IMG/VR virus record: IMGVR_UViG_2879770953_000004 | Length of the DNA stretch: 38,987 nt | Origin: a virus | Taxonomy: Duplodnaviria > Heunggongvirae > Uroviricota > Caudoviricetes | Reading direction: 5' to 3' (one strand) | In this document: in pieces, positions 1 to 16,044 of the stretch | Numbering within the stretch: the first letter of the stretch is position 1 | Layout: the number at the start of each line of letters is the position of its first letter | Program-made: the position numbers and the translations under genes | The notes under the pieces: generated by a model | Told to the model about the DNA's origin: nothing | Seen by the model: only the letters and a program-made list of their open reading frames with translations | Database searches by the model: none

Positions 1-834
1 ATGAGTGATGGGTGGTTAGATTCTACTATGCAAGCAATAAACGATAGGATTAAAAGCCCATTATGGGGATATATCATTCTTGCATGGGTATGGTTCAACT
101 GGCCTAACTTAGCAATGCTCTTTATGAGTGATGCGCCTGTTAAGTTTCGAATAGATTATATACTATCTCAGGAATATTTTTACGCTCATTATCTGCTTGC
201 TCCTGTCTTTTTTGGAGGTGTGCTAGCTGTTATTACTCCTTATGCTCAATGGTTACTTTCTCTTGCTCAAAAATGGGCTACAGATAAACACAATGAAAAT
301 GTTTATCTTACAAAGGAAAAAGAATACTTGGATTCAATCAGGTTAACGGGGTTAAAGGTTCGGGCTGCCAGAGAAGAAGAGAAAGAAAATGCTAAAATTG
401 ATGCTGATATTAAAGCGGAAGTAGAGCGTGGTAAGCGTGAAGAGCTGGTCACAGAAGAGCTACAGACAGAGAAGAAACTGATTCAGAAAGAAATTAATAA
501 TTTAAAGCAGTTAGTATCTAAAGAAAAACAAACCATTGAAAATATCGAGATAGAAAAAGAGAGACTACAGGATTTGATTGTTGCCTCACTTGAGGTAATG
601 GATGATTTCTTTAAAGTTGATAATAGCCGTTCATTACAGCAATTGAAGAGTAGGGTAGAAGAACTTTTAACAGTTTCTGATATTGAAGCTTCTACCATAC
701 GTAACGCGCTACGACAAAAGAAAGAGCTAACTTCATCACAGACAATGAAAATGTTCGATATGGTAGAGGCTAAAATTAAAAAGGAAAAAGAAAAAGGTAA
801 TGATATAGAGTCGGATGAATTAATTAACCAATAA
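1..834 (+). CDS. Hypothetical membrane-anchored coiled-coil protein; may extend upstream of the window
   Basis: 277-aa ORF starting at base 1. The N-terminal third has hydrophobic helices (LWGYIILAWVWFNWPNLAMLF, LLAPVFFGGVLAVITPYAQWLL). The rest is K/E-rich heptad-like sequence. Confidence 0.5.
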   Translation: MSDGWLDSTMQAINDRIKSPLWGYIILAWVWFNWPNLAMLFMSDAPVKFRIDYILSQEYFYAHYLLAPVFFGGVLAVITPYAQWLLSLAQKWATDKHNENVYLTKEKEYLDSIRLTGLKVRAAREEEKENAKIDADIKAEVERGKREELVTEELQTEKKLIQKEINNLKQLVSKEKQTIENIEIEKERLQDLIVASLEVMDDFFKVDNSRSLQQLKSRVEELLTVSDIEASTIRNALRQKKELTSSQTMKMFDMVEAKIKKEKEKGNDIESDELINQ

Positions 835-2656
835 TGCTATGCCTGTAAATAACAGGACATAAACAGGTTAGTACCTATGCAATTTAACGGTATTTTTCCA
901 AGTATCTATGCAATCCTACACAGATTCTATACAGTATCGACATAGCCCCTTTTTATCATAACTTATTGAAATGTATAGAGAATCTGTAAATCCTCTTTTC
1001 AGGGTAAACTATATCGTGTTAGTCGTCCCTCTCCAGACACTACATATAGTGCTATATACAGGGCTATATAACGGTGTCTATGCAGTTGGTCACTATCAAT
1101 ATTCCCTCAAAGTGACTATCAACCTACTTAATAGTTACCTACGTGAAAGTTATGAAGTGATGGTTATAGTTCCTTCGTATCTCCTCTTAAAAAATCACTT
1201 AGAGACATCTTAATCTCTATACAGAATCTACGTAGGTGCTTATTAGTGCGCAAAACAGCTATTATGTTAAAAACATACTGTATACATATCAGTACTGATT
1301 TATAAGGGTTTTGTGTATTGGCTGATAAGAGGCTATACAGCACCTTGAGAGCATGTCTTATAAGTCATTGACACATAAGGTCACAGAAGTTTGTAGCTGT
1401 TACAGAGAAAACTGGATAGGACTTCACAGAACTACAAAATGTTACAGCTATTGATAGGTTAAATCTTCTTGATAGATGCTTTGAAGTGTGATGAAGGTTT
1501 CTTGAGGTGGGGCTAAACAGATATCATGAAGAAAGTCAATAGTTGGTTATAGATATTTTAACTGCTTTTGCAAAGGGAGTGCTATATCGTGAATCTGGGG
1601 TACTTAACAGCCATCAATTGAGTGTAGATATTTTTGAAGATTATCGGTGAAGGGGAATGTAGAGGGGTTACTACGATATTTATAAAAATTTTCAGACTCT
1701 GAAAAGTTACTGTACAGATTTTATACAAACAAAAAAGGACTCCGGTGAAGGAGCCCTCATCAGGTAGATTTTTAATGTGGCTACTACCATCCACCCATAC
1801 CGCACCAAACCTTACCCCACCGAACCGCACCCTACACGACCTTACCTCACCGGACACTGCCATAGAGAGTGTGCTTGGTTGCTTTGGAAGTAAACCTAGT
1901 ACAGTAAGCCATTATACATATCTAGATAGTAACGTCAAGAAACTTTTAACAGGAGGGGTTCCTATGGTCACATATTCCCTCTCTTCCCACTAAGTAAGCC
2001 TTAGCAGCACCTAAGCAACAATTGACTAACAGATTCGGTAGAGTCTATCTCATAGGTCAACTTCATAAACTCAGAGTTAAGTTACCTTGAAAGATTCTAC
2101 CAAGAACTACACAGGTGTTATTTAGTCTAACTGTGAAGGGATATTTAACGGGAGAAGAGATACGATATAACCCGAAGGGAGAGTATCATCTTAACAATTA
2201 TCTTAAGAATAAAAACTGAAAAACTCTTAACAGATAACTACCTAGAAAGAAGGGAACGATAAGACCAGAGGTAGTGACCTGTTAAACAGGCTGTTTCGAA
2301 GTCTCTTAAGAGTCTGTTAAGTAAGGTCATGTGAACAATCTTACCATTTTGTCAATGCCTTTGTCTTTGACCTAAATCAATAAAATGTATCGTTTGATAT
2401 GGTTTTAAGCAAAATAGCTAAAAAATCTTTTTAGAGGGGCGCTTCGCTTGTGTCACCAATATTATTCTTCCCTGTCTAAGGGGGAGGTTACAGAGGTCTT
2501 TCAAACCTCAATAGGCAAACCGAGGAACACGAAGGACGAGGGAAGAAAATCTATTGTGATTACCTTGAACAACGCCTGTAAAGACTGTCAAGAAGGTTGG
2601 TTAAGAATGGCTCTCCCTTTCTGGGGTTATCGCCTTGTATCTTAGTGATGAAGTGG

Positions 2657-3825
<1,169 letters not shown>

Positions 3826-4099
3826 TGGAGCACCTGTGTTGTTCTGAGGTGAGCATATCACCTCTGTTCAGGTGGCCAAATTCAGTGTGCCACTTCATGA
3901 GTCCAGGAAGTTCTCTGTGAAGGGTCTTGTCAGTCCTTTATATTGGGTGATTACAACTCATTGATGAATAAGGGTTTTTCTACAAGCTATCAACTGGATA
4001 GCTTGATGTGACCAACTGAAAGATACAGCTTTCCGGCTTTGTCAAGAGATTTCACTACCCACCAGCTAAAAATATTTCAGAGGCGGGAGTGATTGGAGG

Positions 4100-4288
4100 T
4101 TAGGATGGGTCTTTGTGGTTGTCTTCACGGCCTCTGTCCTTCAGGTCAAACGACCATTCTCGACCGAACAACCGAAACACGATGAACACCCTGACAATGA
4201 CATAGCGAAGTAGTAAGCCTGCGAACAGACCCACACCCCCACCAGCCCATAAATCAGATGACCCCAATTCTTGAGGGAGGTTAAACAT
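4100..4288 (-). CDS. Small single-pass membrane protein (62 aa), function unknown
   Basis: GAAGG Shine-Dalgarno 8 nt upstream of the ATG. One hydrophobic helix (WAGGGVGLFAGLLLRYVIVRVFIVF) and a charged tail. Lies downstream of a strong extended -10 promoter. Confidence 0.35.
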   Translation of the reverse strand: MFNLPQELGSSDLWAGGGVGLFAGLLLRYVIVRVFIVFRLFGREWSFDLKDRGREDNHKDPS

Positions 4289-4371
4289 TCAATGTACCTT
4301 CTGTGTGCAATGCAAAAACATGTGACCAAATACATAGCCACGCTTCATATTTCCCCCTCTCTCATAAACCC

Positions 4372-4380
4372 ATTATACCA
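4372..4380 (-). promoter_or_regulatory. Extended -10 promoter (TGgTATAAT) firing leftward
   Basis: The minus strand reads TGGTATAAT; a perfect TATAAT lies at 4372-4377. Confidence 0.5.
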
Positions 4381-4384
4381 CAAA

Positions 4385-4402
4385 TGTTACGAAATTGTTA
4401 CG
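4385..4402 (+). repeat. Direct repeat TGTTACG x2 with 11-bp period (candidate operator) between divergent promoters
   Basis: TGTTACG at 4385-4391 and at 4396-4402. The second copy runs into the palindrome TTACGTAA. Confidence 0.45.
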
Positions 4403-4409
4403 TAAATGC

Positions 4410-4438
4410 TTGACATTAATCCTTGAAAATGCTAGTAT
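4410..4438 (+). promoter_or_regulatory. Sigma70-like promoter TTGACA-17 bp-TAGTAT firing rightward
   Basis: Perfect -35 at 4410-4415, 17-nt spacer, TAGTAT at 4433-4438. About 50 nt upstream of the ORF at 4491. Confidence 0.5.
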
Positions 4439-4490
4439 TGTATGTATTTAGTTAACAGAATAATAACATTCCATAAGGGTCAGAATATGA

Positions 4491-5042
4491 ATGAACGACA
4501 GAGAATTTCAAAGGTTTCTTGAAGAGAGTAAGGCAAGAAACAAGCACAACTCCTACGCTTACACAAACTCCCCCACCAGCTACGAACTGCCAGCCTTTTC
4601 CAAAACCGAACGTAAAAACATTGAAGCGCTCATTCGTAGCATTACGCCACGGGTAAGACACATGCCAACACGCAAAGAAAAAGAGAACACTTTAAAGACT
4701 TTCCTGATGAGTTTTGATAGCTACGAACAATTACCATCACGAATTGAAGATATTATTATCGGCACTTGTCGCAGCTTTGGAAGAGATAATTATCACCGAA
4801 AAGTTTTCTATTTACTACGAAATATTGACAAGATTAGCTCAAGCACAATAACAAGTTATCTACAGCGTCAAGCGACCCGATTAAGCCATGAGCTACCAAG
4901 TGATAAATATTGCGCTAACTTAGCCACCATTTGCATGAAAGTTATTGAGACAATTAATCATCATGTGGAAGTGGGCAATATTAGCCTTACAACCAGTGAA
5001 CCAGATTTTGAATTTGACCCCTATATTTTGGAGGAATTTTAA
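4491..5042 (+). CDS. Hypothetical protein (183 aa)
   Basis: First ORF of a tightly packed co-directional gene string. No family recognised. Confidence 0.55.
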   Translation: MNDREFQRFLEESKARNKHNSYAYTNSPTSYELPAFSKTERKNIEALIRSITPRVRHMPTRKEKENTLKTFLMSFDSYEQLPSRIEDIIIGTCRSFGRDNYHRKVFYLLRNIDKISSSTITSYLQRQATRLSHELPSDKYCANLATICMKVIETINHHVEVGNISLTTSEPDFEFDPYILEEF

Positions 5043-5043
5043 A

Positions 5044-5322
5044 ATGAATAAACACACTTTGACCCGTATTTCAGAAGAAGCTTTTCACGAGCTTACCCGA
5101 ATTAAACAGACAACTAACCTGCCTCATCAAACTATTATGCAGCTTGCAATTGCTAAAGAGGTCACTGAGTCGGATTTACTGAAATATCCAGTTTCTAAAG
5201 GTCGCAGACACATCAGAATTACTAAGAACGCTCTGGCTACTCTGAAGGAACTGAACAACTTTAAAATTGATATTGCCCGACTATTGAGCATCAAGATTCA
5301 CAAGCTATCGATGGGGGTTTAA
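5044..5322 (+). CDS. Hypothetical small protein, possibly DNA-binding (92 aa)
   Basis: The ATG lies 2 nt after the preceding stop. N-terminus MNKHTLTRISEEAFHELTRIKQTTNLPHQTIMQLAIAKEV has a strand-helix-helix (RHH-like) appearance. This is inference only. Confidence 0.45.
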   Translation: MNKHTLTRISEEAFHELTRIKQTTNLPHQTIMQLAIAKEVTESDLLKYPVSKGRRHIRITKNALATLKELNNFKIDIARLLSIKIHKLSMGV

Positions 5323-5537
5323 TGCTATGCATTACCTTTGAATACCACACAGATAAAATGATTCGCTACATCTCCGACCTCCTGATTAAAGGAAACGGAT
5401 TCGGTGACATCTTTAACTCAAGAGATATTTTCATTAAAGCCATTGGCCCAAATGAAACACTGAAAGCAGCAGTTAAACTGGAATGGTTTGAGCGTCACAA
5501 GATTGAATTAGGTTATTGGGGTGAGGAGGTTTTATGA
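5322..5537 (+). CDS. Hypothetical protein (71 aa)
   Basis: Start overlaps the upstream stop (TAATG). The stop overlaps the next start (ATGA). Confidence 0.45.
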   Translation: MLCITFEYHTDKMIRYISDLLIKGNGFGDIFNSRDIFIKAIGPNETLKAAVKLEWFERHKIELGYWGEEVL

Positions 5538-5821
5538 AACCTTGGCATGAAGATGTTAGGCGATATTTTACAGAACACCTTACCTATGATGAATCCAGTG
5601 ATTCCCTGTGCTGGTCTGATGGAGAGTCGGTCACGATAAATACCGACGACTACGGCAACAAAACATTTAATATAGGTCGATACACATTCTATGTGAAATA
5701 TGTTGTCTGGTTCCTTTATCATGGCTATCAATCCAATAAGCAAATTATCCATCGAAATGGTAACAGAGCCGATACCAGACCAAAAAATCTTATGCAAGTC
5801 CGAGACTTTAAGAGAAATTAG
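5534..5821 (+). CDS. HNH_3-like small nuclease/homing-endonuclease-like protein (95 aa)
   Basis: Motif VVWFLYHGYQSNKQIIHRNGNRADTRPKNL resembles the ...IDHxNGNxxDNRxxNL signature of phage HNH proteins. Confidence 0.5.
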   Translation: MKPWHEDVRRYFTEHLTYDESSDSLCWSDGESVTINTDDYGNKTFNIGRYTFYVKYVVWFLYHGYQSNKQIIHRNGNRADTRPKNLMQVRDFKRN

Positions 5822-5972
5822 AAAAACAGCTTCTCAGACGCTCTCAATCGCATTCTAACGCAAAAAACTACCTTATTTTAGGGTGGACCACTGTACAGGC
5901 TACCCCTGAAAAAGACTGTTTAGCTCGTTACAGAGCGATTGAGGAGGTCTGGTAAAAAGGAGATTTTAGGAA

Positions 5973-6296
5973 ATGAGAGAATATGAATTACAGATTTTCG
6001 TTGATAGCGACACTGCTATGATGGTGCAAAGCTTCATTGATGCAGGTGTGGAAATTGATTTTGATAAATTACTAAAGCTGATGGCTGATAATGCAGAAAA
6101 CATCTCTGACTTTATTCAGTCGGTGGAGTTTAACGAGCCTCGAATGATGTTACCAATTACAGACAGTAATATGAAAAGATTGGTTATTGAGCAAACGAAC
6201 AAATACAGTATTTCCCCAGAGCAATTTTTGAAAGGTGCTGTGACAATCCTGTACAGCGATAATATTTTGGTTACGGATTCCGTGAGGGTTCACTAA
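5973..6296 (+). CDS. Hypothetical acidic protein (107 aa)
   Basis: AAGGAG-type RBS (aaaaggag) upstream. No family recognised. Confidence 0.5.
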   Translation: MREYELQIFVDSDTAMMVQSFIDAGVEIDFDKLLKLMADNAENISDFIQSVEFNEPRMMLPITDSNMKRLVIEQTNKYSISPEQFLKGAVTILYSDNILVTDSVRVH

Positions 6297-6373
6297 TGGG
6301 CTTAATAATTACTTGGACGTTGCTTGGCTTATTTGTTGGTTGCTGGGTGGGTAACACAGTAAATAAGAATTGA
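6296..6373 (+). CDS. Possible 25-aa hydrophobic peptide, translationally coupled (TAATG)
   Basis: MGLIITWTLLGLFVGCWVGNTVNKN read directly from the sequence. Too short for the ORF track. Speculative. Confidence 0.25.
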   Translation: MGLIITWTLLGLFVGCWVGNTVNKN

Positions 6374-6396
6374 TGTTATCAATATGTTAAAAGCTG

Positions 6397-6425
6397 TTGA
6401 CAAATAACCTTAAGCATGAGATGAT
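6397..6425 (+). promoter_or_regulatory. Sigma70-like promoter TTGACA-17 bp-GATGAT
   Basis: Perfect -35 at 6397-6402 but a weak -10. It precedes a ~340-nt untranslated stretch before the ORF at 6769. Confidence 0.35.
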
Positions 6426-6768
6426 GGTAATAGGGGGAGCAACTCTTCCTGAATTAAACTATTAATCATTCTACATCAATGATAGTTATTCTGAGTTGGA
6501 AAGGTGCAATGCTTTTCGTCATGGCCTATTTAGCCCACACTAGATAGGCTATCTCAAAAAGTCTTTGTTCATTCGTTATTGAATCCTTTGGATGTTCTTT
6601 AATTTCTTCACCTTAGCCCTTTATAGCGTTTTAGTTATCTAGGGCTTTTTCAGCTTTTAAAAAGCGCACTTGGCAAACCGCCTTTTAAGTCTCTTCTAAG
6701 TTCGTAGGCTGTCAGGTGTGCTTTTTAAAAACTGAAACATAAATTATCTTAGAAGAGGAAAAATAATA

Positions 6769-7473
6769 ATGTCTATCCGTGATGAACATGAAATGATTAT
6801 CGAAAACAGACCAAGTGCACTTGATATTCACGAATTAAGTTTGCGTGAATCTTTTGATAGAGCTTGGCGGGAATCACACGAAGTAAATAAAGGTCCATAT
6901 ATTCCACCAGAACCACTTGAGATTCCAAGAGTTGAAATTGATTTTTCTATGAACGAACGGTGTGAACTTGATTTGAAGTTGAAGCTACAACGCCGATATT
7001 TCCAAGCTATTAAAGACTCTCAAGAAGCAATGAGAAGTGTTTACGAGAAAATTCAGTCCAAGCTTGAAGACGAAATTGACGAAATGGCTATTTTGATGGA
7101 GCTTCAAACCAATTCTTATGCTTATTTCTCTCGACTAGACCGTGACGGTTGGGGGTATGACCCTGTAGAGATTGGTAAAGTGATTGCAGATTTACCAGAA
7201 GGTCAAAGAGTTGTTCGTACAGAAAGAGCTGTCAGAGCACCACATCGACTGTCTCTAATTGTTGCTGATAAATCACAAGCTGAGCTTGAAGAAATTGCAA
7301 AAGAGAAACTGATGAAAGCAAGAGAAAATGAGATTAATTTGCTGAAATCAAGACTGGCTAAGCTGATTAGTGACCATCAAGCGCTGGCTAAGGAGTACCG
7401 TCAAGAGTTGGCACAGATTATCAGCTTCAATGATTTTCTGAGTGTTCCACGAGAATTTAGCAAGGCTGTTTGA
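6769..7473 (+). CDS. Hypothetical protein with coiled-coil C-terminus (234 aa)
   Basis: GAGGAA RBS upstream. No family recognised. Confidence 0.55.
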   Translation: MSIRDEHEMIIENRPSALDIHELSLRESFDRAWRESHEVNKGPYIPPEPLEIPRVEIDFSMNERCELDLKLKLQRRYFQAIKDSQEAMRSVYEKIQSKLEDEIDEMAILMELQTNSYAYFSRLDRDGWGYDPVEIGKVIADLPEGQRVVRTERAVRAPHRLSLIVADKSQAELEEIAKEKLMKARENEINLLKSRLAKLISDHQALAKEYRQELAQIISFNDFLSVPREFSKAV

Positions 7474-7496
7474 TTATGAATTAAAAGAGGTGATTA

Positions 7497-7709
7497 ATGT
7501 TTGAAGAACGTTTAGAGACTATTCGGTCTGTTTGCGAAAGACTCCAGCTACAACCAAATAGACAAAAGCTACGAATTAAGAATAACCGTCATTACATCAC
7601 CTCACACAAACCAAAAACACGCAAGATTCCAAAGTGGTGTATTGACCGTATTCCTTCTGATGCTCAAATTATAGGTGAAACGGAACTACATTATCTTGTC
7701 CGACATTAA
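7497..7709 (+). CDS. Hypothetical basic protein (70 aa)
   Basis: AGAGGTG RBS upstream. K/R-rich. Confidence 0.45.
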   Translation: MFEERLETIRSVCERLQLQPNRQKLRIKNNRHYITSHKPKTRKIPKWCIDRIPSDAQIIGETELHYLVRH

Positions 7710-7783
7710 AAAAGAATTGGTTGGGTAAATACGGTGAGAGATTATCGAGTGACATCGGTAGTTTCTCCCTTTTTTGTATGTGT

Positions 7784-7850
7784 GCTACGTAAAATCTGTA
7801 AAGTTAATACCCACACTGAAAAATAGAATTTACGTACAACACGCTTAAAG
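7784..7850 (+). promoter_or_regulatory. Leader cassette L1: 8-bp inverted repeat (TACGTAAA / TTTACGTA) bracketing a TAGAAT -10-like box, followed by CACGCTTAA
   Basis: Arms at 7786-7793 and 7829-7836; TAGAAT at 7824-7829. It is a paralogue of the cassette at 10020-10093. Confidence 0.4.
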
Positions 7851-7863
7851 AGGTGAAATATGA

Positions 7864-9930
7864 ATGAGCAGATTTACAGTTGATAGTTTTATCGTTGAGC
7901 TAGGCTTCAATGAAAACGTTATTAAGGGACTGCAAAGAGTTGAAAAGGCAGCTTTGCAGTCAGCACAAAGAATTGAACGTAATTTGAATAGAGCGTTTAA
8001 AGTTAACCCAAAGAGCATGGATAAGGATTTAACAGCCTCTTTGGGAAATATGGAAAAGAAGATTAACCAGACTTTTAATAAGCTGCAGGAAAGAGCCAAA
8101 TCTACGAAGGTCTTTAAGTTCAAAACTCAGGTTGAAGAAACTGTTAAAGCAGCAAGACAGCCACGAATCAGCGGAAGCAGAGCAATTACAGCAGCGCATA
8201 GCGTGAATATGAGCAAGCTTCGTGACTTTAATCCTATGCTTGAGAAGTATTTTAAGAGCCAATATTACAGCTTAAGCAGTAAATCCAAGACACTTGGAAA
8301 CGAAGCTTTTAATCGTGAGTTAGCAAAGTTAAATCAGTCTCTTCGTGAAACACTTTCTAAGTTTAATAAGACCACCAGCAAAAATAATCACAGTGAAAAT
8401 GCTTCGAATGGTCTGGATGTATTAGCTACAAGTGCAATCAAAGCAGGTACAGCCATTTATAGTTTTCAGACAGCCTTAGAAGCTTATAGGAAGATTATGG
8501 AGATTGGTCTGAAAAAAGAAGCATCACAACGAGCGGCACAATTCGTTTTAGGTGATGAAGGTGCTAAACGAGCTACAGAATTTGTTAAGAATCTTGCTGA
8601 TAGTAGTGGTGTAGACCAGATTGAAACATTAAGCAGTTTTGCTAAGTTTTCCGCTGGTGCTGGTGATATGAATGCAGACCAGAAAGAATCCTTATTTTCT
8701 AATGTGATTGGTACATCCAGATTAATGGGGCTAAGCACCGATGAAATTAACGGGATTTTAAAAGCTTTCGAGCAGATGGCATCTAAAGGAAAGATTCAGG
8801 CTGAAGAATTACGCGGTCAGTTAGGGGACAGAATGGCAGGTGCTTTCCAGTTATTTGCCAGAAGCCTTGGAATGACTACGGAAGAATTAGACAAGGCCAT
8901 GAAAGACGGTAAGGTTCTTTCTAAAGATGTTCTCCCTAAAGTATCCGCTGAAATGGGAAGGATGATTGATAAAGCTAGTGGATGGGAAAAGATTATTAAC
9001 TCTACTCAGACGCAGTTAGGCCGCTTAAGTAATTCATGGAACAATAATCTGGCCTTAATGTTCGATGGTTCACAGGAAGGTCTTGTAGATTTTACAAGGT
9101 CACTGACTAATTTACTTAATTCACTGGGTGGTCAATCTAAAAATCTTGGTGAACATTTTGGCGACTTGATGAAAAGCATGTCAAACGGTATTGATGATTT
9201 AACCACGATTAGCTACCGAGTGCAGGGATTCTTTGACAGAGTGACCCTTGCTTACAGAGAATTAAATGACACTCAAAAAGCTGTAGCTGATGGTATCGCA
9301 AATGGCCTGTTAAGTGCATTAAAGGGACTTGCTGGTATTGTCGCTGTAAGGTCTGGTATTGGTGCTGTAGGTGGTATCTGGAACTTAATTAGGGCTATTT
9401 CCACGCTTGGAAATGTCGCAAATACAGCAGCGGGAAGGATTAATTCACGTTCCGGTAGTGTTGAAGGTGGTAAAGGAAAATTATCTGTAGCTGATGCAAT
9501 TACCAGAGTAATGATTGTCGGTATGACGACGGATGTGATTAACTCCATTGTTAAACCACTCTATGAACGTCAGATGAGTAAGTCAGATAATCCGATTGAT
9601 AAAGTTGTAAGGTCAAAGGTGGAACCCACAGACCAGGCATTAACTGGTGACATGAACTCTTTAGCCGCTGTTTTATGGGCTATGGTTCATGGCAAATCAA
9701 AAGATGTTCCACAGTTTTCACCTGAAGCATTAAATAATCTGAAAGGTCGAGTGGAAACATTCACACAAGATTTAAAGGTTATCAAGCCGTCAGTAAATAT
9801 TCAGCCTCAGACAATCAATATCACAACTCAGACGGTACTTGATGGAAAGGTTATTGATGAAAGAACCACATCGCATATTAATCGTATGCAGGAAGATACC
9901 TTGATTAGCTCAGCTTACCCAGAGGAATAA
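7864..9930 (+). CDS. Phage tail tape measure protein (TP901-type core)
   Basis: 688 aa. Helical N-terminus, core ...LMGLSTDEINGILKAFEQMASKGKIQAEELRGQLGDRMAGAFQLFARSLGMTTEEL..., and a glycine-rich hydrophobic segment (GLAGIVAVRSGIGAVGGIWNLI). Confidence 0.75.
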   Translation: MSRFTVDSFIVELGFNENVIKGLQRVEKAALQSAQRIERNLNRAFKVNPKSMDKDLTASLGNMEKKINQTFNKLQERAKSTKVFKFKTQVEETVKAARQPRISGSRAITAAHSVNMSKLRDFNPMLEKYFKSQYYSLSSKSKTLGNEAFNRELAKLNQSLRETLSKFNKTTSKNNHSENASNGLDVLATSAIKAGTAIYSFQTALEAYRKIMEIGLKKEASQRAAQFVLGDEGAKRATEFVKNLADSSGVDQIETLSSFAKFSAGAGDMNADQKESLFSNVIGTSRLMGLSTDEINGILKAFEQMASKGKIQAEELRGQLGDRMAGAFQLFARSLGMTTEELDKAMKDGKVLSKDVLPKVSAEMGRMIDKASGWEKIINSTQTQLGRLSNSWNNNLALMFDGSQEGLVDFTRSLTNLLNSLGGQSKNLGEHFGDLMKSMSNGIDDLTTISYRVQGFFDRVTLAYRELNDTQKAVADGIANGLLSALKGLAGIVAVRSGIGAVGGIWNLIRAISTLGNVANTAAGRINSRSGSVEGGKGKLSVADAITRVMIVGMTTDVINSIVKPLYERQMSKSDNPIDKVVRSKVEPTDQALTGDMNSLAAVLWAMVHGKSKDVPQFSPEALNNLKGRVETFTQDLKVIKPSVNIQPQTINITTQTVLDGKVIDERTTSHINRMQEDTLISSAYPEE

Positions 9931-10019
9931 ACAATGTTAGAACTACTAATATTTATTGCCACACATGGCAATCTATTAATCTTTATCTAGTATGACGATT
10001 CAACTATGAATAGTCGAAT

Positions 10020-10093
10020 GCTACGTGATTTCTTCTGAACAGATACCAACATCAAAAATTAGATTTCACGTAGCTCACGCTTAACAGAATAGG
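10020..10093 (+). promoter_or_regulatory. Leader cassette L2: 9-bp inverted repeat (GCTACGTGA / TCACGTAGC) bracketing TGAACA-18 bp-TAGATT, followed by CACGCTTAACAGAATA
   Basis: Arms at 10020-10028 and 10066-10074. The central part aligns with L1 (ATACC.ACA...AAAAAT.AGA.TT.ACGTA..CACGCTTAA). Confidence 0.4.
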
Positions 10094-10103
10094 AATAACA
10101 ACA

Positions 10104-10877
10104 ATGTTTGACACAAAGCAAATTAGATACTCAGGTAAAGATGGTATCTATTTTCACCTTAGAGATAATGTAGAATCTTTTCTTGCCTTAACAGCTACTG
10201 AACAGATGGACTATGACTCACCGATGATGGTGACAACTCAGGCTATGCAATCGGGGCAAACTATCACTGATAATGTTCAGAGAGCACCTAAGACCATCTC
10301 TATTAGCGGTGTTGTAGTGGTTGATTCGACGGGTTCAGTTCTATTAACCAGACAGGGGCAACTTGTAGAAACCTTTATTTCTACGGTTGAACAATGGCGA
10401 GACCAGAAGCAAATCATCACTATTGTTTGTAGAGATGGAATAGCTATCACTGATAGTATCATTACTCAGTTTAAAGCGAGTAAAGAGCATACCATTGCTA
10501 ACGGTCTTCGTATTCAGATGACCTTCCAAGGTGTAGAGTTTCGTTCAATCGTAGGTCAAACTGATATCTCGGCTGCTACTGGAAAGACAGCTACTACAAA
10601 TGATGGTGGTGCTACCAGCAAAAAGAATACAGGGAACACTACGACAAGCTTAGGTAACGGTATGTTGATGTGTCAGGAGCTATATAATCGCTCTACGAGT
10701 GAACTTTCTAATGAGCAACTTCAAGCCCGTATCAATTGTGGTAGGAATGTCAGAGTTAAGAACGGAAAAAGCACCTTCTCAGATGCCGCTAATGAGCAAG
10801 CTTCAAAGGTGCTTAATAATGCTGGTACAGGTAGTACTTTGAAGAAGTTTTCGGTGAATCCGAATAAGCGCTACTGA
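10104..10877 (+). CDS. Hypothetical tail-associated protein (257 aa)
   Basis: Lies immediately after the tape measure gene. Has a weak pattern resemblance to post-tape-measure tail-tip/baseplate initiator proteins (..ISISGVVVV.....IVCRDG....[11 protein letters not shown]). The C-terminus is low-complexity. Confidence 0.4.
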
Positions 10878-11713
10878 CGATAGAATCTCAACTATATGAT
10901 AACCTCATCAACATCTATTAAACCCCTCTCAGTGACTTCAGAAAGCGACTGTATAGCCTCTGTAACGTTGTCTGAGGGGTTTTCTGTTATTGGTAGGTCA
11001 ATTACCTTACCGTTGTGAAAAGTCACTTTACATCGACGTTTAGCAGTATTTAAAACGACCTCTTTAACAGCACTTTTGATTATCAGTTGTGCTTCAATCC
11101 TTCCCGCCTTTGTAGTCAAGTCACAATCAGACAAACACCCCACATCAATAGATTTAAGGCGTTGTGTCTCCTTCTCGATATCCGCATCAACCTGTGATAG
11201 CTCATTCTTTAGTTGTTTTAGCTTGCTGGTAATAGCTGACAAATCTTCAATTTCAAGTGATAGCTGTACCAGCTTCTCAATATTGCTTGAGATGTGTTCA
11301 CGGTGTAACTTCAGTGTATCGATGGTATTCGTCGTATCGCTATCAAATCGGTCAAGACGAGATAGCAGGGTAAGCAATGTACCATCGGTTTGCTTACGTG
11401 ACAGCCCTTTAGCACTACAACGGTTTTCATTACGAAGGGGACAGCGATAAATCCCGTTTCTTGTATCGCTAAAGCCTGTGATAATCAGAGCATGACCACA
11501 TTCAGAGCAACGGATAACACCTTTGAAAAGATTCACAGCCATTGGCTTATCTGAAGCAGGTTTTCTACCGTAACGAGCATATGATAGTTGCTGGACTTTG
11601 TAGAATGTTGTTTCATCTATAATTGCAGGATAATAATCAGCTATCTCTTCACAGCCTTTAGGTGTGAAGTAACCAATTACAGAGCGATTTTTCAGAAGGT
11701 CTTGTACTGAGGT

Positions 11714-11718
11714 TTGAC
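11714..11718. repeat. IS2 target-site duplication TTGAC (left)
   Basis: Identical pentamer at 13050-13054. Confidence 0.9.
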
Positions 11719-11729
11719 TGGATTTGCCC

Positions 11730-12635
11730 CTATATTTCCAGACATCTGTTATCACTTAACCCATTACAAGCCCGCTGCCGCAGATATTCCCGTGGCGAGC
11801 GATAACCCAGCGCACTATGCGGATGCCATTCGTTATAATGCTCGAACGCCTCTGCAAGGTTCTTTGCTGCCGTTAACCCGTCTGGTTTGGGCATGATACT
11901 GATGTAGTCACGCTTTATCGTTTTCACGAAGCTCTCTGCTATTCCGTTACTCTCCGGACTCCGCACCGCCGTGTTCTTCGGTTCAAGTCCCAACATCCGG
12001 GCGAACTGGCGTGTTTCATTAGCCCGGTAGCATGAACCATTATCCGTCAGCCACTCCACTGGAGACGACGGAAGATCGTTGCCGAAGCGGCGTTCCACCG
12101 CTCCCAGCATGACGTCCTGTACTGTTTCACTGTTGAAGCCGCCGGTAGTCACCGCCCAGTGCAGTGCCTCACGATCACAGCAGTCCAGCGCGAACGTGAC
12201 ACGCAGTCTCTCTCCGTTATCACAGCAGAACTCGAACCCGTCAGAGCACCATCGCTGATTGCTTTCTTTCACGGCCACTCTGCCTGTATGTGCCCGTTTC
12301 GATGGCGGTACAGCAGGTTTTCGCTCAAGCAACAGCGCATTCTGGCGCATGATCCGGTAAACACGTTTGGCATTGATCGCAGGCATACCATCAAGTTCTG
12401 CCTGTCTGCGAAGCAGCGCCCATACCCGACGATAACCATACGTGGGCAGCTCTCCGATAACATGGTGTATACGGAGAAGCACATCCGTATCATCAGTGTG
12501 ACGACTGCGGCGGCCATCCATCCAGTCATCGGTTCGTCTGAGAATGACGTGCAACTGCGCACGCGACACCCGGAGACAACGGCTGACTAAGCTTACTCCC
12601 CATCCCCGGGCAATAAGGGCGCGTGCGCTATCCAC
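11730..12635 (-). CDS. insD: IS2 OrfB (InsD) transposase
   Basis: 301-aa DDE transposase matching IS2 InsD as remembered. Confidence 0.95.
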
Positions 12636-12958
12636 TTTTTTGCCCGTCCATATTCAACGGCTTCTTTGAGGAGTTCATTTTCCATCGTTTTCTTGCCGAG
12701 CAGGCGCTGGAGTTCTTTAATCTGCTTCATGGCGGCAGCAAGTTCAGAGGCAGGAACAACCTGTTCTCCGGCGGCCACAGCAGTAAGACTTCCTTCCTGG
12801 TATTGCTTACGCCAGAGAAATAACTGGCTGGCTGCTACACCATGTTGCCGGGCAACGAGGGAGACCGTCATCCCCGGTTCAAAGCTCTGCTGAACAATTG
12901 CGATCTTTTCCTGTGTGGTACGCCGTCTGCGTTTCTCCGGCCCTAAGACATCAATCAT
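12593..12958 (-). CDS. insC: IS2 OrfA (InsC)
   Basis: [56 protein letters not shown]... matches IS2 InsC as remembered. An A6G slippery run lies at 12635-12641. Confidence 0.95.
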
Positions 12959-13049
12959 CTGTTCTCCAATGACTAGTCTAAAAACTAGTATTAAGACTAT
13001 CACTTAAATAAGTGATACTGGTTGTCTGGAGATTCAGGGGGCCAGTCTA

Positions 13050-13054
13050 TTGAC
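13050..13054. repeat. IS2 target-site duplication TTGAC (right)
   Basis: Identical pentamer at 11714-11718. Confidence 0.9.
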
Positions 13055-13852
13055 CAAATGAACCCGCTTTATATTGGTTAAGCGTCTGGTGACCTTCATC
13101 ATTAAGAGTCCTGACAATCTCCCAGATAGACTTACCCTCTAACCGTAGCTGAAAGCACCTCTTCACAGTCTCCACTTTCTCAGGGATTACAGAGAAGCTT
13201 TTACGGTCATCATTAAGCTTAAGCCATGCAGGACAACGTTTAGAAATCTTGATACCTTCAGAGATGAGTTCTTTTTTACGGTTCCATGCAGCTTGTATAC
13301 GCTCAGACTTCCTCAAACTCTCCTCATGCGACCGCTGCATTATCAGAATGCTTTTAATCAGAGCTAACGGGTCTTTAAGAGATTCTCGTGTGTAATGTTC
13401 ACCATCGGACAAGGTGACCACATCTACACCAGAGCGAAGAATGTTTCTGAGTAGCTCACTTGCTTGGTCTACATCTTGACGTGACAGACGGTCAAGAGAT
13501 TCTATCAAGAGCGTATCACCAGCTTTAACAAGCCCTTTCTCGATAGCGGTTAAAAAGTCACCTAAGCCACCTTTCAAGTGCTTACCAGTGAACCCACTCA
13601 CCCCCAAATCACGGAAGGATAAATCTTGGTCAAGGTAGTACTCAGGATGAGCCTTAAGCCAGTCATTAACCATCTTAGACTGTCTGCGTAGTGAGTCGCC
13701 TTTGGCTTGTCGCTCAGAACTGAATCTGATGTAGCTGATTACACGTTTCATTCTTTACCACCATAAAAACTAATAGCAGTTGGGCTTGTTATGAGGATGC
13801 TTCATCCGAATCATCTACCAACCCCTAGATTGTATCGCTTTAGGTGGTGTAT

Positions 13853-14275
13853 TTAAACGTGTCTGATGAAAATCACCCGATTAACGCCGCGCTGATGTAA
13901 ACCGCGATTAAGCGTTTGTTCCTCTTCCCCTTTGGCGAAAAACTGTGGATGGCGGACTTCCACACCATAATTAAATTCGCCAGGGAGAGAATCGAGAAAA
14001 TGCCAAAGCGCAGGCAGCTCCCGTGGGCCGAATGTGGCAGGCAGTTGCAGCCAGTATTGCCCAATGCGCGGAGCCAACGGTGACATGCGGGTCAAAAATT
14101 CAGTCACTAAATCATCGCAATGTCGTAATGCTGCCTGATGCGAAATGGTCGCCGGAAACTTAAAACAGAAGCGGAAGTCATCTGTGGTCTGTTCACGCCA
14201 GCGCAGGACAACCTCGGGTTTCGGCAGGGCGTAAAGCGTGGTGTTGCCCTCCACGCAGTTAACATGACGGGTATT
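13853..14275 (-). pseudogene. yecE: Internal fragment of yecE (DUF72 family), truncated at both ends by mobile-element junctions
   Basis: Translation ...NCVEGNTTLYALPKPEVVLRWREQTTDDFRFCFKFPATISHQAALRHCDDL...LHQRGVNRVI matches the middle of E. coli YecE as remembered. Similarity is lost after RGVNRVI (~13870) and upstream of ..RH.NCVEG (~14275). Confidence 0.6.
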
Positions 14276-14311
14276 GAAGGCTAACCCACTGATTTTAATA
14301 AGTCTCTTGTG

Positions 14312-15583
14312 TCACTTTGGTGACCATGGGACATAATCTGCCAGCTTCTGATTCAGCATTGCGATCTGTTCTGCATTACTGTCAGTCATCCATGCTCCGT
14401 ATACATTGAACACCATCTGGGCACTTGCATGGCCCATCTAGCTGGCAATGAAGCTTGGGTTTGCTCCGGCAGATAATGACCAGCACGCATAAGTGTGTCG
14501 TGACTGGTATGCTTTCCGGTGCCTGATGCCCGCACGCTTAATGGCTGTTTCCCATGAGTCGCCAATGGAATCTACCTTGTAGATAAAACCTACCTGTTTG
14601 CTTTTTCTAACCACCTGGGGGTTAAATACGAAAGTACATTCATGATTCACTGAACGTCCATATTCACGTAGTTGAACCTTGATGTGGTGCTGCTTACCCA
14701 GTCTTGTCATTTCAGCCTGATTTTTCAGGACACTGATAGCGGGCTGGATAAGATGCACAACCCTGTTTGTACTTGCTTCAGTTTTAGGTAGAGTGAACTC
14801 ACCGAGTTTCGTATAATTGCGCCTGATAGTAATAGTTCCTGCTTTCATATCGATATCTTCCCAGGCCAGGGAGACCAGTTCACCGTGACGCATTCCTGTG
14901 TACACAGCCAATGACCACAGGTTTTTCGTCTGCTGATGTCGGCAAGCATCTATCAGGCGAATAAATTCGTCACGAGTTAACGGATCTGGCTCTGCCCTGG
15001 CTCTTTTAAGAGGCTTAATTCCCTGGAAGGGATTTGCTTCTAAGTAACCGTGATCTGCAGCAAACTGAAACATTCCAGCGATTGTCGTCATGTAATAATT
15101 TACAGTAACGACGCTCCGTCCTTTTGCTGCTGCTTTGTTTTTCGTTGAATTCTGATACCCGGTCAGCAAATCTTTCCTGATATACAGCAATTCCTCTTTG
15201 GTTACCGATGACACCAGTCTGCCGCCTCCAATTTTCGGAACCATCGTTCTTGCAACGGATTCATAGCGATTGAATGCATTTGCAGAGATTTCCATTCGTT
15301 TCAGATCCAGCCACTTTTCTTCAAGTTCCTTCACCGTAATTTCTTTTTTACTTACCCCAAAAGCCTGAAGGTTAGGGGAGTCAGGGAACTGTGCAGCATA
15401 ATCAAAGCTTCCTGTGCGGATGGCAAAACATACCGATGTCCGCAGTTCCCCGGCGATCTTCCTGTTCTTGGCAGTGTCAGGGACACCAAGATTTTCCCTG
15501 ACACGTTTACCTTTAAAATTAAACCAGATGCGTAATGTGCCGCCGTGGTTTTCGACGCCTGTTGGATATTTGACTTTATCCAT
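14312..15583 (-). pseudogene. int: Phage tyrosine integrase with an in-frame TAG removing the catalytic-Tyr segment
   Basis: The ORF ends ...SAGANPSFIAS at TAG 14438-14440. The same frame continues MGHASAQMVFNVYGAWMTDSNAEQIAMLNQKLADYVPWSPK to TGA at 14312-14314. The R (TGMRHGEL) and SRHTYA boxes lie upstream of the stop. Confidence 0.85.
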
Positions 15584-15706
15584 CGATACCTCCAGACGCC
15601 CAAGAGCGATACGAGCTTACATATTTCATGATATTAAATCACTGAGGTAGCCTGAGTTTAACGGACACTCCTTCCTGAAATAGAATGGCATCAGAAGGAG
15701 CTAATA

Positions 15707-16009
15707 ATGAGCAGAAAAACCCAACGTTACTCTAAAGAGTTCAAAGCCGAAGCTGTCAGAACGGTTCTTGAAAATCAACTTTCGATCAGTGAAGGCGCTT
15801 CCCGATTATCTCTTCCTGAAGGCACTTTAGGACAATGGGTTACCGCCGCCAGAAAAGGGCTCGGTACTCCTGGTTCCCGCACGGTGGCTGAACTGGAATC
15901 TGAAATTCTGCAACTGCGTAAGGCGTTAAATGAAGCTCGCCTTGAGCGAGATATATTAAAAAAAGCAACAGCGTATTTTGCACAGGAGTCGCTGAAAAAT
16001 ACGCGTTAA
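15707..16009 (+). CDS. IS600 OrfA
   Basis: MSRKTQRYSKEFKAEAVRTVLENQLSISEGASRLSLPEGTLGQWV... An A7G slippery run lies at 15958-15965. Confidence 0.9.
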   Translation: MSRKTQRYSKEFKAEAVRTVLENQLSISEGASRLSLPEGTLGQWVTAARKGLGTPGSRTVAELESEILQLRKALNEARLERDILKKATAYFAQESLKNTR

Positions 16010-16044
16010 TCGAACAATGGCGACAACAATTTCCCATTGAAGCG

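What the first reader, a model, noticed from the sequence alone, without database searches (positions are those of the whole stretch)
1781..1864. Isolated C-rich, G-poor tract with imperfect tandem repeats in the AT-rich non-coding region
By hand count over 1781-1860, 40 of 80 bases are C and 7 are G, in a region that is otherwise AT-rich. ACCGCACC occurs at 1799-1806 and at 1824-1831. CCTTACC(C/T)CACCG occurs at 1810-1822 and at 1840-1852. On a rightward transcript this is the classic composition of a Rho utilisation (rut) site. On the leftward transcript it is a GG-rich, G/U-rich tract (GGTGAGGTAAGG...GGTGGGGTAAGG) that could fold into two-tetrad G-quadruplexes or bind a protein. The 93-aa antisense ORF across it looks like a by-product of the skewed composition.
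Basis: seen in the sequence. Interest (0 to 1): 0.5.

Follow-up and report, generated by a model that had tools for sequence, protein, structure and literature searches.

The report
Orphan VIPR guide RNA on satellite
The C-rich tract is the antisense image of a small guide-RNA gene (a vrRNA of the recently described VIPR RNA-guided DNA-binding system), carried without its protein partner by a phage satellite, and its code points at the host's own REP repeat elements rather than at a virus.

Summary
The base counts and repeats are real, but the true pattern is a strict 5-nt period: 13 units of NNACC on the + strand, which read GGYNN on the - strand (1797-1861). On the - strand the tract lies between the best sigma-70 promoter of the gap (1938-1911) and its only intrinsic terminator (1758-1725). 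It is followed by a 34-nt tail (1796-1763) identical to the vrRNA1 tail of Felix-O1-like phage XTG1 and one base from that of SUSP1. This matches the vrRNA of VIPR systems (two 2026 bioRxiv preprints): 9-16 GGY/NN repeats plus a 3' pseudoknot tail. Each repeat binds one Vipr protomer, and the NN pairs read DNA while skipping every third base.

The window has no vipr gene. Its first ~13.8 kb is the E. coli phage satellite that those preprints name as the target of SUSP1's VIPR. Phage and rival-satellite guides do hit this window under the skip rule.

The window's own guide hits nothing in the window, in SUSP1 or in IMG/VR. It matches host Z2-type REP elements at 25/26 positions in E. coli K-12 and 26/26 in two related species.

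The rut-site reading is not supported. The class is known. The REP-directed orphan guide, possibly a decoy for the helper's Vipr, appears unreported.

The parts
1911..1938 (-). Sigma-70 promoter of the vrRNA gene. The -35 hexamer TTGACG is at 1938-1933, the spacer is 16 nt and the -10 hexamer TATAAT is at 1916-1911. The predicted start is near 1904.
   Evidence: It is the best promoter match (11/12) in 835-2660. The sequence is conserved in all seven satellites that carry this guide.
1862..1904 (-). 5' leader of the primary transcript, about 43 nt, presumably trimmed off. The 5' end is predicted, not mapped.
   Evidence: It lies between the predicted start and the first repeat and is conserved among the satellites. 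Mature SUSP1 vrRNAs are about 100 nt, i.e. repeats plus tail.
1797..1861 (-). Guide region: 13 pentamer units GGYNN (11 exact GGY, 2 TGT). The NN code, 5'->3', is AG CC GA AA CG AG GC TC GG AA TT GC AT.
   Evidence: In related satellites the only changes inside the array are T<->C at the Y position.
1763..1796 (-). Invariant 3' tail GGGUGGAUGGUAGUAGCCACAUUAAAAAUCUACC forming an H-type pseudoknot. S1 pairs 1794-1791 with 1780-1777. S2 pairs 1788-1784 with 1767-1763.
   Evidence: It is identical over 34 nt to the vrRNA1 tail of phage XTG1 and differs by 1 nt from that of SUSP1. On an 8-tail alignment 98.6% of cells pair, 7 of 9 pairs show changes on both sides, and slid controls give 31-53%.
1725..1758 (-). 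Intrinsic terminator: a 9-bp stem with a 6-nt loop, followed by UUUUUUGUUUGU.
   Evidence: It is the only terminator-like site in 835-2660. It is kept, with compensatory variants, in the other satellites.
1582..1863 (-). 93-aa ORF across the vrRNA gene, judged non-coding.
   Evidence: It runs through the tail and the terminator. The frame is not kept in satellites whose arrays have a different unit number.
1..13751 (.). Body of the roughly 12-kb phage satellite that carries the vrRNA gene, interrupted by two IS3-family insertions at 2657-3861 and about 11756-13040. Genes: hypothetical gene 1-834, HNH 5534-5821, tape measure 7864-9930, baseplate hub/Dit-like 10104-10877, and a split large serine recombinase at 10892-11755 plus 13047-13751. 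In relatives the element is integrated in yecE (DUF72); the yecE fragment here is at 13853-14254.
   Evidence: The baseplate protein is 72% identical to the SUSP1 hub and the tape measure protein 33%. Relative L015 carries the exact protein accessions that the VIPR preprint gives for its 'SUSP1 satellite'.
1054..1080 (+). Predicted target site of a rival satellite's vrRNA (L018 guide, 16/18 NN positions).
1248..1283 (-). Predicted target site of rival satellites' vrRNAs (L019 guide 21/24, L021 guide 20/24).
1335..1361 (+). Predicted target site of a rival satellite's vrRNA (L017 guide, 15/18).
2266..2295 (+). Predicted target site of a phage wV8 vrRNA (18/20).
8256..8291 (+). Predicted target site of phage XTG1 vrRNA1 (20/24), inside the tape measure gene.
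8943..8963 (+). Predicted target site of a short wV8 vrRNA (14/14), inside the tape measure gene.
11693..11731 (+). Predicted target site of a wV8 vrRNA (22/26), in the serine recombinase gene next to the IS junction.

Best explanation
The tract is the template-strand image of a vrRNA gene, the guide RNA of a type II (SUSP1-clade) VIPR system. The gene is transcribed leftwards from its own sigma-70 promoter (start near 1904) to an intrinsic terminator (about 1727). The mature RNA would be about 100 nt: 13 GGYNN repeats (1861-1797) plus a 34-nt pseudoknot tail (1796-1763). [quoted passage not shown] The gene is an orphan. It sits in a phage satellite that has no vipr gene. I infer that it can act only when a Felix-O1/SUSP1-like helper phage brings in Vipr, because its tail is identical to that phage's vrRNA1 tail. 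Its 26-base code has no target in the satellite, in SUSP1 or in the viral collection. It matches host Z2-type REP (BIME) elements almost perfectly. My inferred function, still to be tested, is that the pre-made satellite RNA captures incoming Vipr (about 13 protomers per RNA) and parks it on harmless extragenic host repeats. That would weaken the helper's and rival satellites' VIPR attack on this satellite, which is demonstrably targeted. Shown here: anatomy, homology, covariation, lack of vipr, and target matches. Inferred: expression, loading by helper Vipr, and the decoy role.
For: Array: 5-nt phase with 10/12 exact ACC against a background maximum of 4/12; 13 GGYNN units on the - strand.
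Transcription signals: promoter 11/12 and the only terminator, both on the - strand, conserved in the satellites.
Tail: identical to XTG1 vrRNA1 and 1 nt from SUSP1 vrRNA1. The pseudoknot is supported by covariation: 98.6% paired and 7/9 pairs with double changes.
Published definition: 9-16 YNNGG repeats plus an invariant tail with a pseudoknot, about 100 nt, co-purifying with Vipr, obeying the 1-nt skip rule. One protomer binds per repeat, and the pseudoknot caps the filament.
Vipr gene: the SUSP1 195-aa protein has 13/14 of the residues named in the cryo-EM preprint. A Vipr HMM from 118 homologues finds it at 6e-85 and finds nothing in the window or in four satellites. tblastn is also negative.
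Satellite identity.
The skip rule works on these data: phage and rival-satellite guides hit the window at 80-100% of NN positions only with a 1-nt skip.
Own guide: maximum 16/26 in the window and 17/26 in SUSP1. It scores 25/26 at two K-12 REPs, 21-23/26 at others, and 26/26 in E. whittamii and an Enterobacteriaceae genome. A contiguous 37-nt version is present at >=99% identity in 4952 E. coli records. Guides with shuffled unit order reach only 16-20/26. No match was found in IMG/VR.
Against: No expression data exist for this locus. The 5' end, the processing and the loading by Vipr are all inferred. VIPR itself is known only from two 2026 preprints. This satellite copy is probably immobile, because IS elements sit in its recombinase gene and in its non-coding region, so the gene could be a stranded remnant. 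The decoy idea does not by itself explain why the NN code should match REPs so well, since a pure protein sponge would not need a target. Only about 156 kb of chromosome was scanned for REP sites, so the number of sites per genome is a rough extrapolation. Only the Vipr family of the SUSP1 type was searched, so a very divergent Vipr of another type cannot be excluded. NN conservation among satellites (0/26 changed, against 2/13 Y positions) rests on seven closely related copies and is not significant.
Confidence: 0.8

Rival explanations
1. The tract is a functional orphan vrRNA whose purpose is to act on the host chromosome, not to act as a decoy. Helper Vipr programmed by the satellite would form roadblocks at dozens of REP/BIME sites. 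This would perturb host transcription, gyrase binding or replication to the satellite's benefit, or abort infection.
For: The same identity evidence applies. The REP match is too good to be chance: 25-26/26 against 16-20/26 for shuffled guides. VIPR blocks transcription from either strand. The NN code is unchanged in seven satellites, while Y positions and the tail vary.
Against: REPs lie outside genes, mostly at 3' ends; the matched sites are pitA-uspB, hycI-ascB and torZ-cmoB. Promoter repression is therefore not expected, and no phenotype data exist.
Confidence: 0.25
2. The tract is a functional vrRNA whose real target is a rival satellite or phage that I did not sample, and the REP match is incidental.
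For: [quoted passage not shown] Other satellites' guides do exactly that. I scanned only 15 satellite loci and one complete helper genome.
Against: By my own calculation from the pattern, the chance of a 25/26 match in a 5-Mb genome is about 1e-7. Exact 26/26 matches exist in related species. There is no hit >=75% inside any satellite or in SUSP1, and no exact 11- or 12-unit hit in IMG/VR.
Confidence: 0.08
3. The tract is a decaying relic: a phage vrRNA1 captured by recombination that no longer has a function.
For: The tail is identical to phage vrRNA1, and the first two units (AG, CC) are shared with XTG1 vrRNA1. This satellite copy is riddled with IS elements. Some satellites lack a vrRNA (L003, L004), and L015 carries a 3-unit deletion variant.
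Against: The promoter, array phase, pseudoknot and terminator are all intact in seven copies at 92-99% identity. The tail shows a compensatory A-U to C-G change, and substitutions inside the array fall only at Y (T<->C), which keeps GGY. The REP match also argues for selection.
Confidence: 0.1
4. One reading: the C-rich, G-poor tract is a Rho utilisation site on a rightward transcript.
For: The composition (50% C, 9% G over 80 nt) is typical of rut sites. Rho could load incidentally on any antisense read-through from the upstream gene at 1-834.
Against: No good + strand promoter lies nearby; the best are 9/12. A rut site does not explain the exact 5-nt phase, the conserved tail with covarying pseudoknot, the - strand promoter and terminator, or the homology to phage guide RNAs.
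Confidence: 0.03
5. The leftward G/U-rich RNA acts through two-tetrad G-quadruplexes, or the 93-aa ORF is a real gene.
For: GG runs every 5 nt could in principle form G-quadruplexes. An ATG-initiated ORF spans 1863-1582.
Against: In the published structures the GG bases are flipped out and held by Vipr. The third position is constrained to a pyrimidine, which a quadruplex does not require. The ORF is not conserved where unit numbers differ, and it reads through a terminator.
Confidence: 0.02

Closest known systems
vrRNA1 of Escherichia phage SUSP1 / Felix-O1-like phages (type II VIPR; bioRxiv 10.64898/2026.04.26.720920 and 10.64898/2026.04.26.720927)
   Same: GGYNN pentamer array within the 9-16 unit range. 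The 34-nt tail is the same (0-1 differences) with the same pseudoknot. The length class is the same, and the tail implies the same protein partner.
   Different: There is no vipr or vap gene next to it. It is a stand-alone gene with its own near-consensus sigma-70 promoter, a 43-nt leader and an intrinsic terminator, not part of a phage array. It is carried by the satellite that the phage system attacks. Its predicted target is a host REP element, not a mobile element.
vrRNAs carried by related E. coli satellites (mentioned in the VIPR preprint; loci L016-L021 here)
   Same: Same position in the satellite's non-coding cargo region, the same tail family and terminator, and orphan status.
   Different: Those guides match the non-coding region of window-type satellites at ATACAG-initiated sites, including three sites in this window. 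The window's guide matches no satellite; it matches REPs.
Class 1 CRISPR crRNA with Cas7-type RAMP backbone; phage ICP1 CRISPR-Cas versus the PLE satellite of Vibrio cholerae (from my own knowledge)
   Same: An RNA guide coated by repeating RAMP-fold subunits, with periodic flipped-out bases. A helper phage uses an RNA-guided system against its satellite.
   Different: The guide information is discontinuous: 2 of every 5 RNA bases read 2 of every 3 DNA bases. There is no CRISPR array, no adaptation genes, no PAM and no cleavage in type II.
RNA anti-CRISPRs (Racr) / solitary repeat units of phages, which mimic crRNA repeats and sequester Cas proteins (from my own knowledge)
   Same: A mobile element carries only the RNA half of its enemy's RNA-guided system. 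This is the logic of the decoy hypothesis.
   Different: Here the RNA is a complete guide with a precise host target. Sequestration is my inference and is not shown.
Rho utilisation (rut) sites
   Same: About 80 nt, C-rich and G-poor, on the + strand.
   Different: rut sites have no fixed phase, no conserved flanking structure and no sequence homologues in other genomes. The transcription signals here are on the other strand.
TRAP-binding leader RNA of the Bacillus trp operon (11 (G/U)AG triplets with 2-3 nt spacers; from my own knowledge)
   Same: Conserved triplets separated by 2 variable bases, each triplet held by one subunit of a protein oligomer.
   Different: Different triplet, different protein fold and a different function (attenuation, not DNA targeting). 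In TRAP RNA the spacers carry no information.

Membership tests
VIPR vrRNA (type II, SUSP1 clade) | 9-16 tandem pentamers with conserved GGY alternating with NN | tested here: met
   13 units at 1861-1797 (- strand), 11 exact GGY and 2 TGT. Internal degeneracy is described as frequent in the preprint.
VIPR vrRNA (type II, SUSP1 clade) | GGY kept while NN differs between homologous RNAs | tested here: met
   Across phage and satellite vrRNAs the GGY phase is kept and NN differs. Among copies of this guide, the only array changes are T<->C at Y.
VIPR vrRNA (type II, SUSP1 clade) | Invariant 3' tail folding into a hairpin plus pseudoknot | tested here: met
   The tail is identical to XTG1 vrRNA1. 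All 9 pairs form in the window; 7/9 pairs covary across 8 tails, with 98.6% of cells paired against 31-53% when slid.
VIPR vrRNA (type II, SUSP1 clade) | Encoded beside a vipr gene (a RAMP homologue of about 20 kDa), usually with a vap gene | tested here: not met
   tblastn with the wV8 homologues found nothing better than E = 0.8. An HMM of 118 family members found no hit at E <= 10 in six-frame ORFs of the window and four satellites, against 6e-85 for SUSP1. This does not exclude membership as an RNA, because the preprint itself reports satellite-borne vrRNAs.
VIPR vrRNA (type II, SUSP1 clade) | Resides in a phage, provirus or other mobile element | tested here: met
   It lies in the roughly 12-kb yecE-integrated satellite whose tape measure and baseplate genes are homologous to SUSP1's.
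VIPR vrRNA (type II, SUSP1 clade) | Natural target with >=80% NN match under the 1-nt skip rule, and no self-target in its own element | tested here: met
   25/26 and 26/26 at REP elements; a maximum of 16/26 in the window. The target class (host REP) differs from the mobile-element targets reported.
VIPR vrRNA (type II, SUSP1 clade) | Expressed as an RNA of about 100 nt that co-purifies with Vipr and directs DNA binding | not testable with these tools
   Only promoter and terminator predictions are available.
Rho utilisation site | C-rich, G-poor, unstructured stretch of about 70-80 nt on a nascent RNA, causing Rho-dependent termination downstream | tested here: inconclusive
   The composition is met on the + strand. 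No convincing + strand promoter was found. Termination cannot be tested here. Every conserved feature is explained by the - strand RNA.
RNA G-quadruplex | Four or more G-runs with short loops that fold into stacked tetrads | not tested
   The sequence permits two-tetrad quadruplexes. In VIPR structures, however, the GG bases are bound individually by protein.
Protein-coding gene (93-aa ORF 1582-1863) | Reading frame conserved in homologues | tested here: not met
   The stop-free length over the array falls to 22-63 aa in satellites with other unit numbers.

The most novel reading that the evidence does not exclude
A phage satellite carries only the RNA half of its helper phage's RNA-guided silencing system. 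It uses that RNA to reprogram the helper's own Vipr protein onto the host's REP/BIME repeats. This would be an RNA 'anti-VIPR' that both soaks up about 13 protomers per molecule and locks them on dozens of harmless chromosomal sites. Alternatively it would be a deliberate satellite-directed manipulation of the host chromosome. Either way it would be the first natural RNA-guided system aimed at REP elements, and the first counter-defence against VIPR.
Probability: 0.35. Interest if true: 0.8.

Novelty: new member of a known kind. Interest (0 to 1): 0.6.

Why it matters
VIPR was described only in 2026, as a minimal RNA-guided DNA-binding system that may be older than CRISPR. This locus shows what its guide-RNA genes look like in raw sequence: an unannotated C-rich or G-rich 5-nt-phased tract in 'non-coding' DNA. 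It is unannotated in all 153 E. coli genomes that carry it and is absent from Rfam. It also places one window inside a three-sided conflict. Helper-phage guides hit the satellite, rival satellites' guides hit its regulatory region, and the satellite answers with an orphan guide that depends on the enemy's protein. If the REP-directed guide is confirmed as a decoy or a host-directed tool, it would be a new kind of counter-defence, and the first link between an RNA-guided system and bacterial REP elements. The result also gives a practical rule for genome scans. Strong strand-skewed composition with an exact 5-nt phase followed by a small pseudoknot should be read as a candidate vrRNA before a rut site or a G-quadruplex is invoked.

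Tried and rejected
- **Rfam:** nothing at the gathering threshold over the whole window except four tRNAs. At E <= 10 over 835-2660 there were only chance hits.
- **Plasmid collection:** no match.
- **sRNA ideas from memory:** an anti-GcvB-type C/A-rich sponge, a GcvB-like G/U-rich sRNA, a CsrA/TRAP-type protein-binding RNA, origin iterons, Chi-like or RecA-preferred GT-rich DNA, and a ribosome-binding SD-like decoy. All were dropped once the literature search on 'pentanucleotide repeat' found the VIPR preprint.
- **PhageMaP paper on Bas63:** nothing relevant.
- **Self-targeting:** the guide does not match the window at any skip length other than trivially matching itself at skip 3.
- **Targeting of the helper:** SUSP1 whole genome, maximum 17/26.
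- **Viral targets:** exact 11-unit and 12-unit patterns give 0 hits in IMG/VR. The contiguous REP composite in the phage collection hits only records that contain host DNA.
- **Rejected argument:** REP variants appear to differ only at the skip positions, but this is circular, because the sites were selected for matching at the NN positions.
- **Satellite-encoded Vipr:** rejected by tblastn and by an HMM search. I did not fold the 183-aa first operon protein, so a RAMP fold there is not formally excluded.
- **Supplements:** the preprint's supplementary target tables are not held. I could not check whether the authors already list REP hits.
Full report
**1. The observation.** The counts are exact. 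Positions 1781-1860 hold 40 C, 22 A, 11 T and 7 G. ACCGCACC lies at 1799 and 1824, and CCTTACC(C/T)CACCG lies at 1810-1822 and 1840-1852. The tract sits in an ORF-poor gap of about 35% GC between a 277-aa gene (1-834) and an insertion sequence (2657-3861).

Read in one register, the + strand is NNACC thirteen times. Ten of twelve consecutive phased triplets are exactly ACC, whereas no other place on either strand of the 39-kb window exceeds four of twelve. This is far beyond chance.

**2. Strand and boundaries.** Within 835-2660 the best sigma-70 promoter match is TTGACG-16-TATAAT (11/12) at 1938-1911. The only intrinsic terminator is a 9-bp stem plus U-run at 1758-1725. Both are on the - strand and bracket the tract.

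The leftward transcript would run from about 1904 to about 1727. It would consist of a 43-nt leader, then (GGYNN)x13 at 1861-1797, then the 34-nt sequence GGGUGGAUGGUAGUAGCCACAUUAAAAAUCUACC at 1796-1763, then the terminator. Rfam has no family for it.

**3. Relatives.** Window 1763-1864 matches 117 phage records, all Felix-O1-like (Felixounavirus/Suspvirus), at about 76-82% identity in unannotated intergenic DNA. In XTG1, wV8 and SUSP1 there are four or five such arrays. They flank two small genes and lie on the strand on which the RNA reads GGYNN.

Each array is followed by one of three tail types. The window's tail is identical over 34 nt to the tail of the array upstream of the genes in XTG1, and differs by one base from that of SUSP1.

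**4. What it is.** A full-text search for 'pentanucleotide repeat' with 'phage' and 'small RNA' returned a 2026 bioRxiv preprint (10.64898/2026.04.26.720920), and there is a cryo-EM companion (10.64898/2026.04.26.720927). They describe VIPR systems as follows.

- **Components:** a roughly 20-kDa minimal RAMP protein (Vipr) and vrRNAs of about 100 nt.
- **RNA architecture:** 9-16 YNNGG repeats followed by an invariant 3' tail, with a pseudoknot in the SUSP1 clade.
- **Assembly:** one Vipr protomer binds each GGY, and the pseudoknot caps the filament.
- **Recognition:** the NN dinucleotides pair with double-stranded DNA while every third target base is skipped.
- **Outcome:** transcriptional repression without a PAM, on either strand.

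SUSP1 is their model phage. Its locus (one vrRNA upstream of the genes and three downstream) is the one I recovered at 27499-29511 of KT454805.2. The 195-aa gene there carries 13 of the 14 residues named in the structural paper (H17, K33, R39, E71, M72, K82, G87, K88, R138, C173, D177, W178, R179). It is therefore Vipr.

**5. Membership tests.**
- **Repeat number and GGY phase:** met.
- **GGY conserved while NN varies among homologues:** met.
- **Tail pseudoknot:** met. I aligned eight distinct tails without gaps and specified two helices. S1 pairs GUGG with CCAC. S2 pairs GGUAG with CUACC. 98.6% of cells pair. Seven of nine pairs show changes on both sides: GUGG/CCAC, AAGG/CCUU and GUAG/CUAC for S1, and A-U to C-G and U-A to C-G changes in S2. 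Sliding the partner columns drops pairing to 31-53%.
- **Adjacent vipr/vap genes:** not met. tblastn with the wV8 proteins gives nothing better than E = 0.8. An HMM built from 118 family members (from 529 hits) finds SUSP1's gene at 6e-85, but finds nothing at E <= 10 in any six-frame ORF of the window or of four related satellites.

The RNA gene is therefore an orphan.

**6. The carrier.** The first ~13.8 kb of the window is not part of the lambdoid prophage that fills the rest. The prophage shows an integrase at 14438-15583, Q at 16999-17694, tRNAs at 17871-18177 and lambda-like tail genes from about 21 kb.

The left part is an island of about 12 kb. In intact relatives it is integrated into yecE (DUF72), or next to tonB or wrbA, by a large serine recombinase. 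It carries a hypothetical first gene, a non-coding stretch of about 2.6 kb, small ORFs, an HNH endonuclease, a tape measure protein and a baseplate hub. The backbone occurs in 480 of 5426 complete E. coli genomes, and the vrRNA unit in 153, of which 54 are full length.

The window's baseplate protein is 72% identical to the SUSP1 hub, and its tape measure protein is 33% identical. Relative L015 (strain SCU-387) carries exactly the accessions WP_096972664.1 and WP_096972663.1. [quoted passage not shown] In the window copy, IS3-family elements interrupt the non-coding region (2657-3861) and the recombinase gene (about 11756-13040). This copy is therefore probably immobile, although the vrRNA gene itself is intact.

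**7. The skip rule reproduces on these data.** I replaced each GGY with one wildcard, as in the preprint's method. Phage guides then hit the window only at skip = 1.
- A wV8 guide scores 18/20 at 2266-2295.
- XTG1 vrRNA1 scores 20/24 at 8256-8291, inside the tape measure gene.
- A short wV8 guide scores 14/14 at 8943-8963.
- Another wV8 guide scores 22/26 at 11693-11731, in the recombinase gene.
- SUSP1 guides reach 26/30 in sister satellites.

Satellites of a second lineage (L016-L021) carry other guides. These match the non-coding region of window-type satellites, including the window at 1054-1080 (16/18), 1248-1283 (21/24) and 1335-1361 (15/18). All of these sites begin with ATACAG. The window is thus a target of both helper and rival guides.

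**8. The window's own guide.** The code nAGnCCnGAnAAnCGnAGnGCnTCnGGnAAnTTnGCnAT is shared unchanged by six other satellites at 92-99% identity; L015 carries a three-unit deletion variant. The only substitutions inside the array are T<->C at the Y position. The tail shows a compensatory A-U to C-G change.

The guide scores at background level in all three places where a mobile-element target was expected.
- **Window:** 16/26.
- **All satellite bodies:** no hit >=75%.
- **SUSP1 genome:** 17/26.

Its best hits are chromosomal REP elements of the 25-nt 'Z2' type, GCCTGATAAGCGTAGCGCATCAGGC, plus their flank.
- torZ-cmoB REP: 21-23/26.
- ymdF-rutG REP: 21/26.
- K-12 pitA-uspB and hycI-ascB REPs: 25/26 each.

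In 156 kb of sampled chromosome, the two 25/26 sites stand against 16-20/26 for 200 guides with shuffled unit order. Y-type REPs score 11-13/26. The exact 26-base pattern occurs in Escherichia whittamii and in an unnamed Enterobacteriaceae genome, again at REPs. A contiguous 37-nt version is present at >=99% identity in 4952 records, and every one of the 5426 E. coli genomes holds a place covering at least 80% of the query. No exact 11- or 12-unit match exists in the IMG/VR collection. The preprint text does not mention REP elements or decoys, and its supplementary tables are not available to me.

**9. Mechanism.** The gene structure, its homology, the pseudoknot, the lack of vipr, the satellite context and the target matches are shown. 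The following is inferred.
- The RNA is made constitutively from its near-consensus promoter.
- It is trimmed to about 100 nt.
- It can be assembled only when a VIPR-carrying helper supplies Vipr, which the identical tail suggests.

Because one protomer binds per repeat, each molecule would take up about 13 protomers. Engagement starts at the units next to the pseudoknot. Here those units read the REP's right arm and its flank, so a subfamily of BIMEs would be bound.

My preferred reading is a decoy that diverts Vipr from the guides attacking the satellite and parks it on extragenic host repeats. A host-directed function is the main alternative. The data do not separate the two. A relic, or an unsampled mobile-element target, is less likely.

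The rut-site idea fits only the base composition. The G-quadruplex idea is superseded by protein-held GG bases. The ORF is a by-product. The suggestion of a protein-binding leftward RNA was on the right track.

**11. Novelty.** The kind of element has been known since 2026, and satellite-borne copies are mentioned in that work, so this is a new member of a known kind. What appears new is the stand-alone gene architecture and, above all, a guide directed at host REP elements.

Noticed in passing
window 900-1400 (e.g. 1054-1080, 1248-1283, 1335-1361): The non-coding region upstream of the vrRNA gene is studded with (C)TATACAG-type motifs. Three of them are the 5' ends of predicted target sites for rival satellites' vrRNAs. 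They may be operators, promoters or origin repeats of the satellite.
   Followed up: partly
window 2657-3861; about 11756-13040; 15707-16863; 18880-20076; 37759-38987: There are five insertion sequences in 39 kb: four of the IS3 family and one of the IS110 family. One splits the satellite's serine recombinase gene and one sits in its non-coding region. The copies at about 11756-13040 and 37759-38987 have the same ORF layout.
   Followed up: partly
window 13853-17694: A yecE (DUF72) fragment is followed directly by a lambdoid integrase, an IS, and then antiterminator Q. The prophage's early region is missing or replaced. The satellite and the prophage appear to share the yecE area, as in strain EC12 (L007).
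   Followed up: partly
window 17871-18177: A cluster of four tRNA genes lies downstream of Q in the lambdoid prophage. This arrangement is typical of Stx-like phages.
   Followed up: no
L003 13193-13717; L015 10829-11497; L017 10776-11438: The satellite slot that holds the vrRNA gene is a variable cargo region. Some relatives carry an AP2/ERF-domain gene instead, and others carry an N6-adenine DNA methyltransferase beside the vrRNA. This suggests a hot spot for conflict-related cargo.
   Followed up: no
L022 40874-40952; L013 2431-2528: Both 25/26 REP targets are the Z2 member of a Y+Z2 pair (a BIME), with the flank GGCAATTT(T/A)GC. The guide therefore seems tuned to one BIME subfamily and not to all REPs.
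   Followed up: partly
L001 1620-1830 and 3018-3245; SUSP1 27621-27966: In the phages, successive vrRNAs are separated by a conserved spacer (UUAAAAGGUCUUUAAACAGGGUCUUUUAAUAA) that the satellite genes lack. It may be the processing signal of the phage arrays.
   Followed up: no
window 4491-5042: The first gene of the satellite's rightward operon encodes a 183-aa protein with no Pfam or PHROG match. The sites just upstream of its homologues are hit by the XTG1 phage guide (20/22 in L004 and L009) and by the L020 satellite guide (16-17/20 in nine satellites), which suggests this is the promoter the attackers aim at.
   Followed up: partly
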